A DNA stretch of 13,012 nucleotides from the UHGV virus genome UHGV-0116252; one strand, 5' to 3'. Below the pieces are notes generated by a model, which was not told where the DNA came from, ran no database searches, and saw only the letters and a list, made by a program, of their open reading frames with translations. Numbering within the stretch: the first letter of the stretch is position 1; each line of letters begins with the position of its first letter. Made by a program: the position numbers and the translations under genes. This document shows positions 6,667-11,977 of this stretch, one piece after another. The DNA comes from a virus.

Positions 6667-7341
6667 ATGAAAACAATCCATGACATCCGGCGGTCTAACG
6701 CCAGAAAACTGAGAGATGGTGTTGGCGGGAATTCTTCCTTTGCCACCATGATTGATCGCGAGCCAACCCAGACCAGCAGGTTTATGGGAGATGGTGCAAC
6801 TAAAAATATCGGTGACAGCATGGCACGGCACATCGAAAAATGTTTCGACCTGCCTGTCGGATGGCTTGATCAAGAACACCAGACAACGAACATCACAAAA
6901 AAACCTGACGTTTCAATCACTAACAAACAAATAACGTTAGTCCCTGTCATATCATGGGTACAGGCCGGAGCATGGAAAGAAGTTGGCTATTCTGAGGTTG
7001 ATTTGAGCACAGCAGAAACTTATCCCTGCCCTGTACCCTGTGGCGAAATGACTTATATCTTGCGGGTGATTGGTGATTCAATGATTGATGAGTACCGCCC
7101 GGGAGACATGATTTTTGTTGATCCTGAAGTCCCTGCCTGCCACGGTGACGACGTTATTGCATTGATGCACGATACAGGCGAAACCACCTTCAAGCGGTTG
7201 ATAGAAGATGGAACACAGCGTTATCTCAAAGCATTAAACCCAAACTGGCCTGAGCCTTACATTAAGATTAACGGTAATTGCTCTATAATTGGTACAGTGA
7301 TTTTCTCAGGAAAACCAAGAAGATACATAATAAAGGCCTAA
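6667..7341 (+). CDS. CI-type prophage repressor (HTH plus S24 LexA-like peptidase domain)
   Basis: 224 aa; N-terminal HTH region ending in VGWL, linker, then C-terminal S24 autocleavage domain with Ser motif VIGDSM and Lys motif TFKRL. Divergent from cro. Confidence 0.85.
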   Translation: MKTIHDIRRSNARKLRDGVGGNSSFATMIDREPTQTSRFMGDGATKNIGDSMARHIEKCFDLPVGWLDQEHQTTNITKKPDVSITNKQITLVPVISWVQAGAWKEVGYSEVDLSTAETYPCPVPCGEMTYILRVIGDSMIDEYRPGDMIFVDPEVPACHGDDVIALMHDTGETTFKRLIEDGTQRYLKALNPNWPEPYIKINGNCSIIGTVIFSGKPRRYIIKA

Positions 7342-7352
7342 TCAATATTTAT

Positions 7353-7376
7353 AACCTGCTTCGGCAGGTTTTTTTA
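7353..7376 (+). terminator. Rho-independent terminator after the repressor gene
   Basis: Stem aacctgc (7353..7359), loop ttcg, stem gcaggtt (7364..7370), followed by a run of T to 7375. Begins 12 nt after the CI stop. Confidence 0.65.
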
Positions 7377-7379
7377 TAC

Positions 7380-7412
7380 TTGACAATGTACCTTTGGGAT
7401 ACATAATGTATC
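7380..7412 (+). promoter_or_regulatory. pL-like sigma70 promoter with overlapping operator palindrome
   Basis: -35 TTGACA (7380..7385), 16-bp spacer, -10 CATAAT (7402..7407). Perfect palindrome GATACAT-a-ATGTATC (7398..7412) overlaps the -10, and an ATGTACC half-site (7386..7392) matches the OR half-sites. Confidence 0.55.
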
Positions 7413-7797
7413 TAAAAGAAACACAGCACAGGCAAGATTAAACAAAATTTGGTTGTAACACGGCGTATGGCACATGCGTCGTTAGCGGTCTGGGGACGTT
7501 AAAGGGGACAATCCACTCCTTGCTCGGGCAAACAAACCAGGTAGCCGGAATGTGCAAGCCACAGCCAGGTATGAGCGATTGATTCACCATCAAGGCGATA
7601 CGGTGTGACCACCAGGGAAGAGTCCTGGCTACAACACGAGAGCGCACTTCATCGACTCAACTTTGAGCTTTGTCGTTAAATTTTGAAATGGCGGAGTGCG
7701 CTCCCGGTTGTGGTGAACAGGTGTTTAACGGGAACTCCCTGCCCGTTACCCGGTTCGATTCCGGGCGCCCATCATCAATTTGCTGTGTTTAGTCTTT

Positions 7798-7826
7798 GCC
7801 CAGTCCGCACGATGGGCCATTTTTTC
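7798..7826 (+). terminator. Candidate weak intrinsic terminator within the ORF-poor region
   Basis: GCCCA (7798..7802) pairs with TGGGC (7813..7817) around a 10-nt loop, followed by cattttttc with six T at 7820..7825. Short stem, so weak. Confidence 0.3.
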
Positions 7827-7918
7827 ACACAGCCAGGTTTTATCGCTGTGCCTGAGTCCCCAACAGGAGAGGCCAAACCCGCAGCGTGACACCAGGGAAA
7901 GACCGGAGGAAGTACCAC

Positions 7919-7986
7919 GCCTGACCAGCGTTGACCATGAGCCTGACCAGCTCAAAACAGGAAAGACCAGCCCGGGCCTGACCAGC
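7919..7986 (+). repeat. Three exact copies of the 11-mer GCCTGACCAGC in non-coding DNA
   Basis: Exact copies at 7919..7929, 7941..7951 and 7976..7986, interspersed with related GAAAGACCAG (7961..7970) and TTGACCATGAG (7931..7941). Confidence 0.8.
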
Positions 7987-8126
7987 CCTGTACGGTCGTA
8001 ATGGAAACATAACGACGCCGGAAACGTAACCGGCACCCTTTAGATGGCAAAAGACCCGCACAAGGCGGGCCAGTTACCCCGAACGGCGACCAAACCATTC
8101 GGATTTATCACAAGTGACCAAACTTG

Positions 8127-8142
8127 TGATGAGGAAAGACCA
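8127..8142 (+). repeat. Copy 1 of conserved 16-nt motif TGATGAGGAAAGACCA, followed by ACG not ATG
   Basis: Same motif as at 8527 and 11699, including the GAGGA Shine-Dalgarno core; preceded by the hairpin TCACAAGT-gaccaa-ACTTGTGA (8108..8129). The position corresponding to the start codon reads ACG (8143..8145). Confidence 0.7.
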
Positions 8143-8191
8143 ACGACAGAGCCGCTGATCGGTTCTGAGTATACCCCACTAAGGAGTCGCT

Positions 8192-8512
8192 ATGGAAGCG
8201 CGCACAATCCCAGTAACACTCTTTATTCATTATGCAACTTCAACTTTCAGCCATGAAAAGCTGTTTATTGCGACGGTTGATATGTCAAAAAATTTTCCAG
8301 ACAGGTACATCCTTCTGGAAAGCCGCGAAATTGAAATTACCGTCAACCAGCCCCAGCCAATCGACATCATCGGTTTACAGGTTGAGCAGCTGCGTGAGCA
8401 AAAACAGAAAACAGCCGCCGACGCCCAACAGCGTATTGCTGCTATCGATGACAAAATCCAGCAGTTACTTTGCATCGAATACACGCCAGATACCGATGAA
8501 ATCCCCTACTAA
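8192..8512 (+). CDS. Hypothetical protein (106 aa) with predicted C-terminal coiled coil
   Basis: ATG 8192 preceded by AAGGAG (8181..8186) with 5-nt spacing; first convincing ORF downstream of the pL-like promoter. No family recognised. Confidence 0.6.
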   Translation: MEARTIPVTLFIHYATSTFSHEKLFIATVDMSKNFPDRYILLESREIEITVNQPQPIDIIGLQVEQLREQKQKTAADAQQRIAAIDDKIQQLLCIEYTPDTDEIPY

Positions 8513-8526
8513 AGACCACTGACCTG

Positions 8527-8542
8527 TAATGAGGAAAGACCA
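8527..8542 (+). repeat. Copy 2 of conserved motif TAATGAGGAAAGACCA directly before the ATG at 8543
   Basis: Identical 15/16 to copy 1; supplies the Shine-Dalgarno for the 737-aa gene. Confidence 0.7.
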
Positions 8543-10756
8543 ATGACCATTTTTAACGGCTTGTTAGAAGCGAAAAAAGGCGCGCTCAAAAACGGCGCGA
8601 TCCCGGCGCTGGCCATCGCCATCGACGCCCCTAACAAAAAAGTTGCCGAGAACATCATCATCGGCAAATTGTGGGAAGCCTACCCTGACCACGGCGACAA
8701 CTATTTCAAACCTAAAATCTGGGAAGATGCCCCGGGCCAACCGCGCCCAGGCGTTGGTGAGTTTGATGAGACGTTCGCCACAGAACACAGTTTTGATGGC
8801 GAAAAATGGGTAGTTAACACCCCCGTTGTAGATAGCGGTTCAGCAGATATCGCACAGGTTAACGACCTGATGAAACTGCCGGCTCGTGAACGATTCGCCG
8901 CCGTTCTGCTGTTCAGCCACGACGCCAACGAAGTCGACAGTGAATTGCTTGCGCAGACGCGTGAATACCTAGAGATGCTCGACAACAGTGATACTGACAG
9001 TGAGGATGAGGTTGACGCATTTAACCGCATCGTTCTTGATGCCATGGTGGCGTGTAAGCCCATCGAGTACATGCATATTGCTGGATTGAATAATCTGGTA
9101 CATGCAATTTTGGCAAGTTGCGATACCCAGGAACAAAACCCGACCAGTTGGACTATCTCCAAATTTATAAAAAAATGGGTAGAGAATCCCGGTAAACGCG
9201 ATGAAATGCTGCCGGAGGTAAAACTAGAAACAGCATCCGCACGTCCTTACCAACAGACTCACGCCACACTGGAACGTGAAATTGCCTGCGCCCTGTTACC
9301 CGTTGGCCCGGAAAAAATCACCCCCAGCGTCCTGAAAGCGGCAGACGAAATAATCAGCCAGGACCGGGAGGATTTTAAACGCTGGTCAATGGCCTTGCGC
9401 ACAACGGATCAGATCCTTGCCTATGACCGCGCATCAGTATTCGGTGTTATTCAGCGCGCCCCCGCAAAAGACACGTACCACTTCCCGCAATCCCTGCGCA
9501 GTCACATCGACAACTGGCTGCAAGCTAACGGGCAGCGTGATGCAAATGCTGTTGAAGAGAAGCCAAAGGAAGCAGCACCAAAGGATGATGTAAAAGTCAC
9601 CAACCACGGCGGCGGGCGATTCTCAATTGATGGAATGATGTCAGAAACACCCTCAAATCAGGGCGAAAAAAGCGAAGCAGCAAATGCTGGAGAACGTAGT
9701 TTGCAGCAGTTGCGTGAGCGGTTTGTCACGCCTCGCCATGTGTATGACGTACCTGAAAATAACGCCGTCTCACAGAGGGAACCTGCAGCTATTACCCCGG
9801 CAGAAGAGACTCCTCCACAAGAAAAACTTAGCGAGCAGGTAAAGGATCTGGTGCAGAACGTTGACGCGCTGGTTGAGCGGATCCATACCGAAGAGCACAA
9901 GCGGCAGAATGCAATCTCAGCTATCGAAACGGAGTTAAAGGACTCCGACGACACAGATAACCTGGCATTGTGGAAGAACGTATTCAAAACCGATGAGCGC
10001 TTCACCAGTGCTTTCTCTCAGAACGGCGGCGGCACATCCATCAACGGCACTTATATAGCGATGAAAGCGACTCGCGAATTTGGGCCGTTTGGTATTGGCT
10101 GGGGTGTAGAGGTGGTGGAAGAGCGTTTTGATAAAGGCGCACCGATAGTTCGCAAAAAACAGGTTGGTGAAAAAATAGAATGGGATCTGATTCAAGACGG
10201 TGTTGGCGGGTACCTATGTGAAATGCACCACACCATGAAAGTTAGAGTCTGGTACATATTGAATGGAGTGCGCGGTGAGTCCGAGGCTTACGGATGCACA
10301 CCTTATATCTACGACACTAAATACGGACCAACAAGCGACGGCGAAGCACCGAAGAAATCCTGGACGGATGCTGTTAAGAAAGCGCTATCCCCTCTCGGAT
10401 TCAGCGCCGATATTTTCATGGGCCTGTACGACAATCCGGAATACCGCCAGAGGAATAAAGCTGAGTTTGATATCAAGAATGCCAGCGAGAATGCGGAAGA
10501 TGCTACCCGTCTGCGTAAGGAACTGGATGAGAAGCTTATCAACGTTGCCAATACGCTGGCCTCCGCGGTAACCACTAACGAAGTAAACAAGGTATTTGGC
10601 CTCATCGCCCGCGAAGTGGATGTACACCGAAAAGCAGCAGAAGCCAAAGGCGATAAAGAATATTCATCGTATCTGGGATCGCGCCTGCGCCGTATCACCG
10701 ACATCAAAACTGAACGCCTCGCCGCCCTCACCGCTGCACAGGAGCAAACCGCATGA
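8543..10756 (+). CDS. Rad52/Sak-type single-strand annealing protein with an unrecognised ~490-aa N-terminal region
   Basis: Uninterrupted 737-codon ORF. C-terminal ~250 aa carries Rad52-fold blocks: GGGTSINGTYIAMKATREFGPFGIGWG (compare human RAD52 [27 protein letters not shown]), KVRVWYILNGVRGESEAYG, and KKSWTDAVKKALSPLGFSADIFMG (compare [21 protein letters not shown]). N-terminal 490 aa has no motif I recognise and includes an acidic stretch DNSDTDSEDEVD. Confidence 0.7.
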   Translation: MTIFNGLLEAKKGALKNGAIPALAIAIDAPNKKVAENIIIGKLWEAYPDHGDNYFKPKIWEDAPGQPRPGVGEFDETFATEHSFDGEKWVVNTPVVDSGSADIAQVNDLMKLPARERFAAVLLFSHDANEVDSELLAQTREYLEMLDNSDTDSEDEVDAFNRIVLDAMVACKPIEYMHIAGLNNLVHAILASCDTQEQNPTSWTISKFIKKWVENPGKRDEMLPEVKLETASARPYQQTHATLEREIACALLPVGPEKITPSVLKAADEIISQDREDFKRWSMALRTTDQILAYDRASVFGVIQRAPAKDTYHFPQSLRSHIDNWLQANGQRDANAVEEKPKEAAPKDDVKVTNHGGGRFSIDGMMSETPSNQGEKSEAANAGERSLQQLRERFVTPRHVYDVPENNAVSQREPAAITPAEETPPQEKLSEQVKDLVQNVDALVERIHTEEHKRQNAISAIETELKDSDDTDNLALWKNVFKTDERFTSAFSQNGGGTSINGTYIAMKATREFGPFGIGWGVEVVEERFDKGAPIVRKKQVGEKIEWDLIQDGVGGYLCEMHHTMKVRVWYILNGVRGESEAYGCTPYIYDTKYGPTSDGEAPKKSWTDAVKKALSPLGFSADIFMGLYDNPEYRQRNKAEFDIKNASENAEDATRLRKELDEKLINVANTLASAVTTNEVNKVFGLIAREVDVHRKAAEAKGDKEYSSYLGSRLRRITDIKTERLAALTAAQEQTA

Positions 10757-11553: not shown

Positions 11554-11778
11554 ATGCTGCGATGGCAACCGGGAGCAACTCTGCTCTCCGCATTTGATAT
11601 CAAAATTGGCCGACTGTCGGCCAGCGTCAGGAAACAGGCTGTGACCGAGTCTGATATTGCCCGTGCCTGCAAGGCGGCAGATGACGCAATAAGCTACATA
11701 ATGAGGAAAGACCATGAGAAGCGATCACGACATAATCACCAGAGAAGAAATGGTCGAGCTGACGGGAAGCCCACTTAA
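11554..11778 (+). CDS. Hypothetical small protein (weak call)
   Basis: ATG 11554 with GGAGG 6 nt upstream. The N-terminal ~50 codons look protein-like; the 3' end overlaps the xis-like gene in another frame. Confidence 0.3.
   Translation: MLRWQPGATLLSAFDIKIGRLSASVRKQAVTESDIARACKAADDAISYIMRKDHEKRSRHNHQRRNGRADGKPT
11699..11713 (+). repeat. Copy 3 of conserved motif TAATGAGGAAAGACC directly before the ATG at 11714
   Basis: Same motif as at 8127 and 8527; supplies the Shine-Dalgarno for the excisionase-like gene. Confidence 0.7.
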
Positions 11779-11977
11779 ATCAAAGCAATGTGAGGCTCTT
11801 CGCCGGGCTGGAATTTTCTTCATGGAAAGGGCTGACGGGCACCCAAAAACAACCTGGGGCCATTTCATGAACCCAATAAAATTTCGCAATTTACAGGAGG
11901 TGACGACGCGAAAAGATGATGAACCTGATTTTGGAGCAATATTTAATGGCCGGAAAGAGAAAGAACCCAGCAGATAA
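11714..11977 (+). CDS. Excisionase-like small DNA-binding protein (DUF4224-like)
   Basis: 87 aa directly upstream of and overlapping the integrase gene; the segment ITREEMVELTGSPLKSKQCEALRRAGIFF resembles DUF4224 proteins that precede phage integrases. Confidence 0.55.
   Translation: MRSDHDIITREEMVELTGSPLKSKQCEALRRAGIFFMERADGHPKTTWGHFMNPIKFRNLQEVTTRKDDEPDFGAIFNGRKEKEPSR

What the first reader, a model, noticed from the sequence alone, without database searches (positions are those of the whole stretch)
8127..8545. Conserved 16-nt motif (T[A/G]ATGAGGAAAGACCA) recurring at gene starts, one copy followed by ACG instead of ATG
The motif occurs at 8127..8142, 8527..8542 and 11699..11713. Copies 2 and 3 sit immediately before the start codons of the annealase gene (8543) and the excisionase-like gene (11714) and provide their Shine-Dalgarno. 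Copy 1 is followed at the equivalent position by ACG (8143), in frame with a short ORF with no recognisable function. This looks like a shared translation-initiation cassette or module-boundary linker of the kind that promotes mosaic exchange, with copy 1 marking a decayed or deleted gene start.
Basis: seen in the sequence. Interest (0 to 1): 0.5.

Follow-up and report, generated by a model that had tools for sequence, protein, structure and literature searches.

The report
Prophage antisense RNA matching shared ribosome sites
The repeated 16-base motif is a ribosome-binding sequence shared by several unrelated early prophage genes. The copy with no start codon instead lies on the template of an unannotated, structurally conserved small antisense RNA whose exposed stretch is the exact complement of that sequence, so it probably shuts those genes off.

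Summary
In detail: TRATGAGGAAAGACCA occurs exactly at 8127, 8527 and 11699, which is far above chance. The conserved core is GAGGAAAGACCA(A).

Copies 2 and 3 are real ribosome-binding sites. In 119 related loci, 363 of 397 non-leader copies of GGAAAGACC are followed within 0-4 nt by a start codon and an ORF. These belong to at least five unrelated early-gene families on both operon strands, and the motif often sits at mosaic joints.

Copy 1 is not a decayed gene start. It lies in a ~120-nt element (8046-8167, minus strand) found in 450 of 5,426 complete E. coli genomes and in Raoultella, Citrobacter, Enterobacter, Serratia and Rosenbergiella. The element has:
- an invariant TATAnT box;
- a 5' hairpin;
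- a single-stranded UUGGUCUUUCCUC stretch;
- two hairpins with UUGGUC loops;
- a terminator with a U-tract.

Covariation is strong (21 of 29 pairs). G·U pairs favour the minus strand.

Most likely this is an unannotated prophage sRNA that pairs with the shared ribosome-binding sites and represses translation. ORF-less motif copies in the pL leader may act as decoys. Expression and repression have not been tested.

The parts
8046..8167 (-). Candidate small RNA gene of about 120 nt, antisense to the early-left (pL) leader. It contains copy 1 of the motif as its template.
   Evidence: Covariance model R1 scores 114.8 bits (E 1.6e-22) here, the only strong hit in the window. The MFE is -55 kcal/mol with z = -6.8. 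92.6% of cells are paired against 81.2% in shuffles and 35-51% in slid controls, and 21 of 29 pairs show compensatory change.
8168..8173 (-). Putative -10 box, TATACT on the minus strand.
   Evidence: TATAnT is invariant in 76 aligned homologues while its neighbours vary. It lies just upstream of the covarying 5' hairpin. No canonical -35 was found, and the consensus promoter scan reported nothing on this strand. This part is inferred.
8149..8165 (-). 5' hairpin D (GAACCG-AUCAG-CGGCUC).
   Evidence: 5 of 6 pairs change on both sides and 89% of cells are paired. The strand signal is ambiguous here, with 31 G·U against 22 A·C cells.
8131..8143 (-). Single-stranded seed UUGGUCUUUCCUC, the reverse complement of copy 1's core GAGGAAAGACCAA.
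   Evidence: It lies between hairpins D and C'. The core GGUCUUUCC is invariant in every homologue, including 10 loci retrieved through the neighbouring protein without reference to the motif. In the single-sequence MFE fold of the window the UUGGUC part pairs instead into an extended 5' hairpin, and RNAalifold predicts a similar non-covarying pairing. Covariation supports hairpin D. Predicted duplexes are -32.5 kcal/mol with the 8543 initiation region and -26.7 with the 11714 region. Other starts give -5.6 to -18.8, and shuffled seeds average -10 to -13.
8107..8130 (-). Hairpin C', a 9-bp stem with loop UUGGUC.
   Evidence: 100% of cells are paired and 8 of 9 pairs have compensatory changes. 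There are 24 G·U cells on the minus strand against 0 A·C (29 against 0 on the plain MAFFT alignment).
8079..8102 (-). Hairpin B', with loop UUUGGUCG.
   Evidence: 6 of 8 pairs change on both sides. There are 81 G·U against 17 A·C cells.
8046..8071 (-). Terminator hairpin A' (GGCCCGC-CUUGU-GCGGGUC) with a U-tract.
   Evidence: Relatives carry CCCAC-UUCG-GUGGG followed by U7 on the minus strand. Compensatory G-C to A-U changes occur.
8527..8542 (+). Copy 2: ribosome-binding site of the 737-aa gene (8543-10756).
   Evidence: ATG follows at 8543. The same motif precedes the homologous ~715-745-aa gene in all relatives examined. It is fully complementary to the seed.
11699..11714 (+). Copy 3: ribosome-binding site of the DUF4224 excisionase-like gene (11714-11977).
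   Evidence: The motif precedes excisionase genes of two unrelated families in relatives.
7896..7904 (+). ORF-less copy of the core GGAAAGACC in the pL leader, a possible decoy site.
   Evidence: Relatives carry 2-5 leader copies per locus: 302 in total, of which 297 have no ORF, counted on the operon strand; other ORF-less copies on the opposite strand number at most 7.
7960..7968 (+). Second ORF-less leader copy of the core.
8192..8512 (+). 106-aa gene (phrog_2479, function unknown). Its start region overlaps the RNA's promoter region, and it always lies next to the RNA gene.
   Evidence: All 10 loci found through this protein carry the RNA element about 20 nt upstream on the other strand.

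Best explanation
The window is the early-left arm of a mosaic lambdoid prophage. GAGGAAAGACCA(A)-N0-4-AUG is a ribosome-binding cassette shared by several unrelated early genes of one prophage family. In this window those genes are the 737-aa gene and the excisionase-like gene.

Copy 1 is not a gene start. It is the template of the exposed seed (5'-UUGGUCUUUCCUC-3') of a ~120-nt RNA transcribed from the opposite strand (8167 to 8046). That RNA has a -10 box, a 5' hairpin, the seed, two hairpins whose UUGGUC loops repeat part of the seed, and an intrinsic terminator.

Shown here: the element exists, its structure covaries, the structure fits the minus strand, it is widespread, and its seed is perfectly complementary to the cassette.

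Inferred: the RNA is expressed, probably from the resident prophage. It pairs over the Shine-Dalgarno sequence and start codon of cassette-bearing mRNAs and blocks their translation. This would keep excision, recombination and some rightward-operon genes silent.

Also inferred: the pL leader carries the fully complementary antisense stretch plus 2-5 ORF-less cassette copies. It could therefore titrate or destroy the RNA once pL fires.

The shared cassette also offers 13-16 bp of identity at gene boundaries, which fits its position at mosaic joints.
For: - Motif: three exact copies, above chance.
- Structure: 92.6% of cells are paired against 81.2±0.5% in shuffles and 35-51% in slid controls. 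21 of 29 pairs show compensatory change, and hairpin C' is 100% paired.
- Strand: G·U against A·C cells are 24/0, 81/17 and 8/0 in hairpins C', B' and A'. The count is 29/0 for C' on an alignment not fitted to the structure. The U7 tract follows the terminator stem on the minus strand.
- Promoter: TATAnT is invariant upstream.
- Fold: z = -6.8.
- Distribution: 10 of 10 loci found through the adjacent protein carry the element with an invariant GGUCUUUCC.
- Regulon-like pattern: 698 extra copies of the 9-mer in 1.19 Mb against about 9 expected. 363 of 397 non-leader copies sit 0-4 nt before a start and an ORF, and the 302 leader copies counted on the operon strand are nearly all ORF-less. The target families are unrelated.
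- Whole phage genome: the motif at gene starts is confined to the early region, 28.9-37.0 kb of 43.9 kb.
- Duplex energies: -32.5 and -26.7 kcal/mol against -19 or weaker elsewhere.
- No conserved ORF follows copy 1.
Against: - There is no expression data of any kind, so transcription, RNA ends and Hfq dependence are untested.
- No recognisable -35 exists, and the consensus promoter scan found nothing on the minus strand.
- Hairpin D gives no clear strand signal, 31 G·U against 22 A·C.
- The window's MFE fold and RNAalifold pair the UUGGUC part of the seed with the 5' region, so the seed may be partly sequestered.
- The core of the seed and of the targets never varies, so there is no seed-target covariation to prove pairing. 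Peripheral seed variants (CCUA, CCGAAAG, UCGGUC) are only partly mirrored in the targets.
- Most homologues were retrieved with a pattern that required the motif, an ascertainment bias that the 10 protein-anchored loci only partly remove.
- The excisionase module with its motif also occurs in phages that lack the RNA, such as L004.
- The CM alignment is fitted to the proposed structure.
Confidence: 0.55

Rival explanations
1. The RNA acts only in cis. The minus-strand RNA is real but works solely on the pL leader it overlaps, for example through RNase III cleavage, attenuation or transcriptional interference with the 106-aa gene. Its match to other ribosome-binding sites would then be a by-product of overlapping one more copy of a common cassette.
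For: The RNA is fully complementary to the 120 nt upstream of the 106-aa gene, and its -10 lies about 20 nt from that gene's start. In 26 of 90 homologues copy 1 is followed by an ATG, so it can act as a ribosome-binding site for a short upstream ORF.
Against: A purely cis antisense RNA needs no invariant sequence. Here the stems vary freely with compensation, while the 9-13-nt seed and the UUGGUC loops are invariant from E. coli to Serratia. The leader also holds 2-5 further ORF-less complementary copies.
Confidence: 0.2
2. There is no trans-acting factor. The motif is simply an efficient ribosome-binding site and module-boundary linker, spread and kept by recombination between mosaic phages. 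Copy 1 is a vestigial or upstream-ORF start.
For: Mosaic joints coincide with the motif. Unrelated excisionases follow it. The excisionase module carries the motif into phages without the RNA. Some relatives have an ATG after copy 1.
Against: This view does not explain three things. The first is the covarying hairpins with minus-strand G·U pairs, the invariant TATAnT and the U7 terminator around copy 1. The second is why the 13 nt stay invariant where no ORF follows. The third is the nearly 300 ORF-less, strand-specific leader copies.
Confidence: 0.15
3. The motif is the RNA operator of a phage translational repressor protein, analogous to T4 RegA. Under this view the leader copies and copy 1 are protein-titrating sites on the + strand.
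For: The motif is strand-specific and sits at fixed spacing from start codons of many genes. Many leader copies are displayed in hairpin loops of the form GCCGG-GAAAGA-CCGGC.
Against: No candidate RNA-binding protein was identified. The adjacent 106-aa protein has no family annotation. The structured element around copy 1 fits the minus strand, not the + strand.
Confidence: 0.08

Closest known systems
P1/P7 c4 antisense RNA acting on the icd-ant mRNA (own knowledge; summarised in PMC12197685)
   Same: It is a phage-encoded structured RNA whose exposed sequences pair with the ribosome-binding region of phage mRNA to block translation and support immunity or lysogeny.
   Different: c4 is processed from the same transcript as its target, on the same strand, and controls one operon. 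The RNA here is on the opposite strand with its own -10 and terminator, and its complement occurs at 2-5 unrelated genes on both operons. No Rfam hit of any family except weak chance-level ones was found at E up to 10.
Satellite phage P4 CI RNA with its seqA/seqC target repeats in the leader (own knowledge)
   Same: It is a small immunity RNA with several complementary target repeats in the early leader transcript, comparable to the ORF-less leader copies seen here.
   Different: P4 CI RNA causes premature transcription termination and is cut out of the leader itself. Here most targets are ribosome-binding sites of coding genes.
P22 sar and lambda OOP antisense RNAs (own knowledge; OOP and aQ are listed in PMC12197685)
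   Same: They are short antisense RNAs within early or immunity regions of lambdoid phages, and each ends at an intrinsic terminator.
   Different: They act only on the overlapping gene. They have no repeated trans targets.
Prophage trans-acting sRNAs such as DicF (Qin), and the EHEC anti-sRNAs AsxR and AgvB (PMC4104026)
   Same: They are prophage-encoded, terminator-ended base-pairing RNAs that sit at conserved positions in lambdoid prophages.
   Different: Those RNAs target host mRNAs or host sRNAs. The candidate targets here are the phage's own early genes, through a shared cassette.
T4 RegA translational repressor regulon (own knowledge)
   Same: One factor recognises a related sequence at the initiation regions of many early phage mRNAs.
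   Different: RegA is a protein. Here the complementary partner is an RNA.
Conserved 'boundary' or linker sequences at gene junctions of lambdoid phages, from the modular-evolution idea of Susskind and Botstein and the HK620 analysis of Clark et al. 2001 (own knowledge, not checked here)
   Same: A short identical sequence sits at gene boundaries and is flanked by unrelated modules.
   Different: Here the boundary sequence has a precise complementary RNA gene, and it is repeated without ORFs in the leader.

Membership tests
Trans-acting base-pairing sRNA with intrinsic terminator | Stable terminator hairpin followed by a U-tract at the 3' end | tested here: met
   Hairpin A' is followed by UCUUUUG in the window and by U7 in most relatives, with compensatory changes in the stem.
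Trans-acting base-pairing sRNA with intrinsic terminator | Own promoter | tested here: inconclusive
   TATAnT is invariant just upstream of the 5' hairpin. No -35 was found, and the consensus scan returned no minus-strand hit.
Trans-acting base-pairing sRNA with intrinsic terminator | Conserved single-stranded seed complementary to target initiation regions | tested here: met
   GGUCUUUCC is invariant. It is perfectly complementary to the ribosome-binding sites at 8527 and 11699 and to 363 gene starts in relatives. One caveat: the window's MFE fold pairs part of the seed.
Trans-acting base-pairing sRNA with intrinsic terminator | The RNA is expressed and represses its targets | not testable with these tools
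   No transcriptome or reporter data were available.
Rfam C4 antisense RNA family (P1 c4 / P4 CI) | Match to the family covariance model | tested here: not met
   Rfam gave no match at gathering score in the window. C4 is absent from the E up to 10 list for 7300-8600.
Rfam IsrK / IsrB | Match at the gathering score | tested here: not met
   Scores were 14.1 and 15.2 bits against gathering scores of 50 and 35, with E of 3.8 and 8.8.
Shine-Dalgarno translation-initiation site (copies 2 and 3) | GAGG/AGGA 5-10 nt upstream of a start codon that opens a conserved ORF | tested here: met
   The spacing from the core to the start codon is 0-4 nt in 363 cases.
Shine-Dalgarno translation-initiation site (copy 1) | Followed by a start codon and a conserved ORF | tested here: not met
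   The following triplet is ACG, ATA or ACA in 64 of 90 homologues. ORFs that start at an ATG are 7, 10 or 47 codons long and unrelated.
Lambdoid module-boundary (linker) sequence | Identical short sequence at gene junctions with unrelated sequence on one side | tested here: met
   Identity drops from 88% to 55%, rises from 50% to 79%, and rises from 50% to 70% across the motif in three comparisons.
Type I toxin-antitoxin (antisense RNA over a toxin ribosome-binding site) | Conserved small hydrophobic toxin ORF opposite the RNA | tested here: not met
   No conserved ORF lies opposite the RNA.

The most novel reading that the evidence does not exclude
A family of Enterobacterales prophages uses a private ribosome-binding code. 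One prophage sRNA gates translation of every early gene that carries the GAGGAAAGACCA cassette, on both operons. The pL leader, with its antisense stretch and decoy copies, acts as an RNA sponge that flips the switch on induction. The same RNA would give RNA-based immunity against superinfecting relatives that share the cassette. The cassette would also serve as the recombination joint that lets new modules plug into the regulon.
Probability: 0.3. Interest if true: 0.8.

Novelty: new variant of a known kind. Interest (0 to 1): 0.65.

Why it matters
If the RNA is expressed, it adds an unannotated sRNA family carried by about 8% of complete E. coli genomes, and by several other enterobacterial genera, to the short list of phage regulatory RNAs.

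It would also be an unusual case in which a phage marks a set of unrelated early genes (excisionase, a recombination-type protein, rightward-operon genes) with one ribosome-binding sequence so that a single RNA can silence them together.

This would link two long-standing themes. One is how lysogens keep leaky early transcripts, especially xis, from being translated. The other is why short identical sequences sit at module boundaries in mosaic lambdoid phages.

Both ideas become directly testable with reporter fusions and compensatory seed mutations.

Tried and rejected
- Rfam, at gathering scores and at E up to 10, found no family for the element. It gave only a sub-threshold RprA-like hit upstream and chance-level IsrK, IsrB and Trp-leader hits.
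- ARAGORN found no tRNA, despite a T-arm-like sequence at 7752-7764.
- The + strand as the structured strand was rejected by the G·U against A·C asymmetry.
- The 70-aa ORF 8044-8256 as a real gene was rejected. Its ATG and frame are absent in most relatives, where the region is the terminator A-tract.
- A type I toxin-antitoxin reading was rejected because no conserved small ORF lies opposite the RNA.
- A recent local duplication was rejected because the copies sit at homologous positions across genera.
- Seed-target covariation was uninformative because the core never varies.
- Pairing of the RprA-like RNA with the motif was considered. It gave only 6 contiguous pairs by eye and was not pursued.
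- Full-text searches for the sequence and for the concept found no description.
- Pfam, NCBIfam and PDB searches did not support the 'annealase' label for the 737-aa protein.
- The first viral-contig scan with the bare 15-mer returned mostly chance hits in unrelated contigs.
Full report
**Observation.** The three copies exist exactly as described: TGATGAGGAAAGACCA at 8127-8142 and TAATGAGGAAAGACCA at 8527-8542 and 11699-11714, all on the + strand. With up to three mismatches the window holds 4 matches against 0.17 expected, and no shuffle out of 200 reaches 4. ATG follows copy 2 at 8543. The last A of copy 3 begins the ATG at 11714. ACG follows copy 1 at 8143, in frame with the mechanical ORF 8044-8256. 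Copies 1 and 2 share a longer 26-nt repeat at 88% identity. The 9-mer core GGAAAGACC occurs five times in the window, always on the + strand, with extra copies at 7896 and 7960.

**Context.** The window is the early-left arm of a lambdoid prophage:
- an LexA/UmuD-like cI repressor at 6667-7341;
- a strong promoter-like site at 7380-7407;
- about 800 nt without a credible ORF;
- a 106-aa gene at 8192-8512 (phrog_2479, function unknown);
- a 737-aa gene at 8543-10756 (phrog_2489 'exonuclease', with one segment like the RecE N-terminal region and no Pfam or PDB hit);
- a Gp157-family gene, a 60-aa ORF, a DUF4224 excisionase-like gene at 11714-11977 and an integrase.

The prophage is mosaic. The cI module (to about 7561) matches cdtI/SfV-type phages. 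From about 7538 rightwards the sequence matches a different prophage family with a Rac-like immunity region, integrated next to leuZ-cysT-glyW.

**What copy 1 sits in.** Homologues of 8017-8217 are much better conserved than the flanking genes. Aligning them shows three hairpins followed by an invariant GAGGAAAGACCAA. The stems change freely, but with compensation. A pattern scan of viral contigs returned at least 120 loci, giving 90 distinct sequences.

Read on the minus strand, the element consists of an invariant TATAnT, a 5' hairpin and a single-stranded UUGGUCUUUCCUC. These are followed by a 9-bp hairpin with loop UUGGUC, a second hairpin with loop UUUGGUC, then GGGGUAA. It ends in a GC-rich hairpin, usually CCCAC-UUCG-GUGGG, followed by U7.

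I built a covariance model from 26 representatives. It scores 81-149 bits in all homologous loci and 114.8 bits at window 8046-8167 on the minus strand, the only strong hit in the window. On the model alignment 92.6% of cells form pairs, against 81.2±0.5% in shuffles and 35-51% when partners are slid. 21 of 29 pairs carry compensatory changes, and hairpin C' is 100% paired with 8 of 9 pairs covarying. The window sequence folds to -55 kcal/mol with z = -6.8.

**Which strand.** A G·U pair on one strand is a C·A mismatch on the other, so the two counts tell the strands apart. G·U against A·C cells on the minus strand are 24/0 (hairpin C'), 81/17 (B'), 8/0 (terminator) and 31/22 (5' hairpin, uninformative). 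On the plain MAFFT alignment, which was not fitted to any structure, hairpin C' gives 29/0. The long U-tract also follows the terminator stem on the minus strand. The structured RNA is therefore on the minus strand, antisense to the pL leader.

**Copy 1 is not a decayed start.** In 90 distinct homologues the triplet after the motif is ACG 46, ATG 26, ATA 11 and ACA 7. Where ATG is present the ORFs are 47, 10 or 7 codons long, in different frames and unrelated. ORF 8044-8256 is not conserved either, because its start lies in what is the terminator A-tract in most relatives. The 13 nt of the motif are invariant throughout, even though they serve no conserved coding sequence.

**Ascertainment control.** My pattern scan required the motif, so I also retrieved loci through the adjacent 106-aa protein. 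All 10 loci carry the element about 20 nt upstream of the gene on the other strand, at 57-140 bits. They come from Raoultella (2), Citrobacter, Enterobacter, Serratia (5) and Rosenbergiella. The seed core GGUCUUUCC is invariant and only its edges vary, as ...CCUC...CCUA...CCGAAAG...CCUUGG and UCGGUC....

In complete E. coli genomes the element is present in 450 of 5,426, always chromosomal, and is never annotated. Only two GenBank phage records carry it.

**The motif as a cassette.** In 120 loci (1.19 Mb) the 9-mer occurs 698 times beyond the seed copy, against about 9 expected. Outside the leader, 363 of 397 copies are followed within 0-4 nt by a start codon and an ORF of at least 40 aa. Of these, 189 are on the early-left strand and 174 on the opposite, rightward-operon strand.

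The genes belong to unrelated families:
- the ~720-aa phrog_2489 protein;
- excisionases of two non-homologous families (phrog_1266/DUF4224 and phrog_629);
- a 94-98-aa protein;
- a 72-74-aa protein (phrog_2465);
- a 167-226-aa protein (phrog_4183).

In a complete isolated phage genome of 43.9 kb, the motif at gene starts is confined to the early region at 28.9-37.0 kb: four ribosome-binding sites, the seed copy and three leader copies. The pL leader carries 2-5 further copies per locus. These total 302, of which 297 are ORF-less, counted on the operon strand, and many sit in hairpin loops. The window's own rightward arm lacks the motif, as expected from its foreign immunity module.

**Mosaic joints.** L222 versus L226 is 88% identical in the 60 nt before the motif and 55% after it. 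L226 versus L217 is 50% before and 79% after. Window copy 2 versus L217 is 50% before and 70% after. The motif itself stays 86-100% identical across these comparisons. The excisionase module also carries its motif into phages without the RNA.

**Mechanism.** The seed is perfectly complementary to copies 2 and 3 over 15-16 nt, covering the Shine-Dalgarno sequence and reaching the start codon. Predicted duplexes are -32.5 and -26.7 kcal/mol, against -5.6 to -18.8 for 15 other start regions in the window and -10 to -13 for shuffled seeds.

I infer a prophage sRNA that occludes the initiation regions of cassette-bearing early mRNAs. The leader would serve both as a perfect antisense partner and as a multi-site decoy. 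The UUGGUC loops repeat the 3' half of the pairing and could nucleate contact. All of this is inference.

Several weaknesses remain:
- There is no expression evidence.
- No -35 was found, and the promoter scan is silent on this strand.
- The window's MFE fold and RNAalifold pair the UUGGUC part of the seed with the 5' region.
- The invariant core gives no seed-target covariation.

**Rivals.** The alternatives are a cis-only antisense RNA, a pure ribosome-binding-site/linker with no partner, and a protein operator. Each explains part of the data, but none explains all three key features together. Those are the minus-strand covarying structure, the invariant seed without an ORF, and the strand-specific ORF-less leader copies.

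**Comparison with known systems.** The closest analogues in logic are P1/P7 c4, P4 CI RNA, P22 sar and lambda OOP. DicF and the EHEC anti-sRNAs are the nearest prophage sRNAs. T4 RegA is the protein analogue of a shared-operator regulon. The element matches no Rfam family. I found no paper that gives the sequence or describes such an RNA in the searchable library. That is not proof of novelty, because subscription-only literature is not covered.

**Verdict.** Copies 2 and 3 are a shared initiation cassette that lies at module boundaries. Copy 1 is most likely the seed template of an unannotated antisense sRNA rather than a dead gene start.

Noticed in passing
window 7717-7827 (+): There is an RprA-like element here: Rfam RF00034 at 37.4 bits (gathering score 70), E 0.014. 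Its 3' part, UUGCUGUGUUUAGUCUUUGCCC, plus the terminator hairpin at 7803-7827 nearly matches the RprA consensus. It sits in the pL leader about 400 nt after the promoter-like site, and parts of it are conserved in L008, L057, L072, L076 and L116.
   Followed up: partly
window 7752-7764 (within 7693-7773): A tRNA T-arm-like sequence, GGTTCGATTCCGG, gives a weak tRNA-Sec hit (19 bits, E 0.81). ARAGORN finds no tRNA. It may be a remnant of an attachment site.
   Followed up: no
window 7919-7986: GCCTGACCAGC is repeated three times, at 7919, 7941 and 7976, in a GACCA-rich stretch of the leader. GACCA is complementary to the UGGUC of the RNA's loops and seed.
   Followed up: partly
window 11554-11778 (+): This is an unannotated 74-aa ORF (MLRWQPGATLLSAFDIKIGRLSASVRK...) that is conserved at protein level in Raoultella (L217) and Serratia (L226). 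It overlaps the excisionase start by 65 nt, and copy 3 lies inside its reading frame (..IMRKD..). RefSeq leaves this 210-nt gap empty.
   Followed up: partly
window 8114-8149; E. coli 2020CK-00188, NZ_ABACVG020000001.1 1426407-1426442: A 36-nt match at 97% identity to the hairpin C and copy 1 region lies under a feature annotated as CRISPR. It is apparently a spacer against this phage family (H78).
   Followed up: no
window 7447-7629: This stretch is about 82% identical to unannotated DNA of the P1-like phage-plasmid SJ46 and of phage vB_EcoM-Ro157c2YLVW. Part of the 7300-8700 query also matches 518 places on E. coli plasmids.
   Followed up: no
window ~7538-7561: This is a mosaic joint. Homology to cdtI/SfV-type cI modules ends near 7561, and homology to the RNA-bearing prophage family begins near 7538. 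No N-like gene lies between the pL-like promoter and the leader terminators.
   Followed up: partly
L227 (OM816834.1) 32376-32549: A phage deposited as a Stenotrophomonas phage (BUCT708) has an enterobacterial-type early region that carries the RNA element. Its annotators placed a 37-aa hypothetical CDS (32436-32549) across the element, starting at a leader copy of the motif.
   Followed up: partly
L012 5761-5903 and L017 5589-5733 (same group: L048, L103, L177): These relatives carry an insertion of about 20 nt in the RNA's 5' region. The insertion duplicates GATCAGCTTCCATAGCG, the start region of the 106-aa gene, and lowers the model score to about 88 bits.
   Followed up: no
window 8014-8037 and 7963-7989 (-): Two further terminator-like hairpins lie on the minus strand just downstream of the RNA's own terminator. 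They may be back-up terminators that shield the repressor gene from antisense read-through.
   Followed up: no
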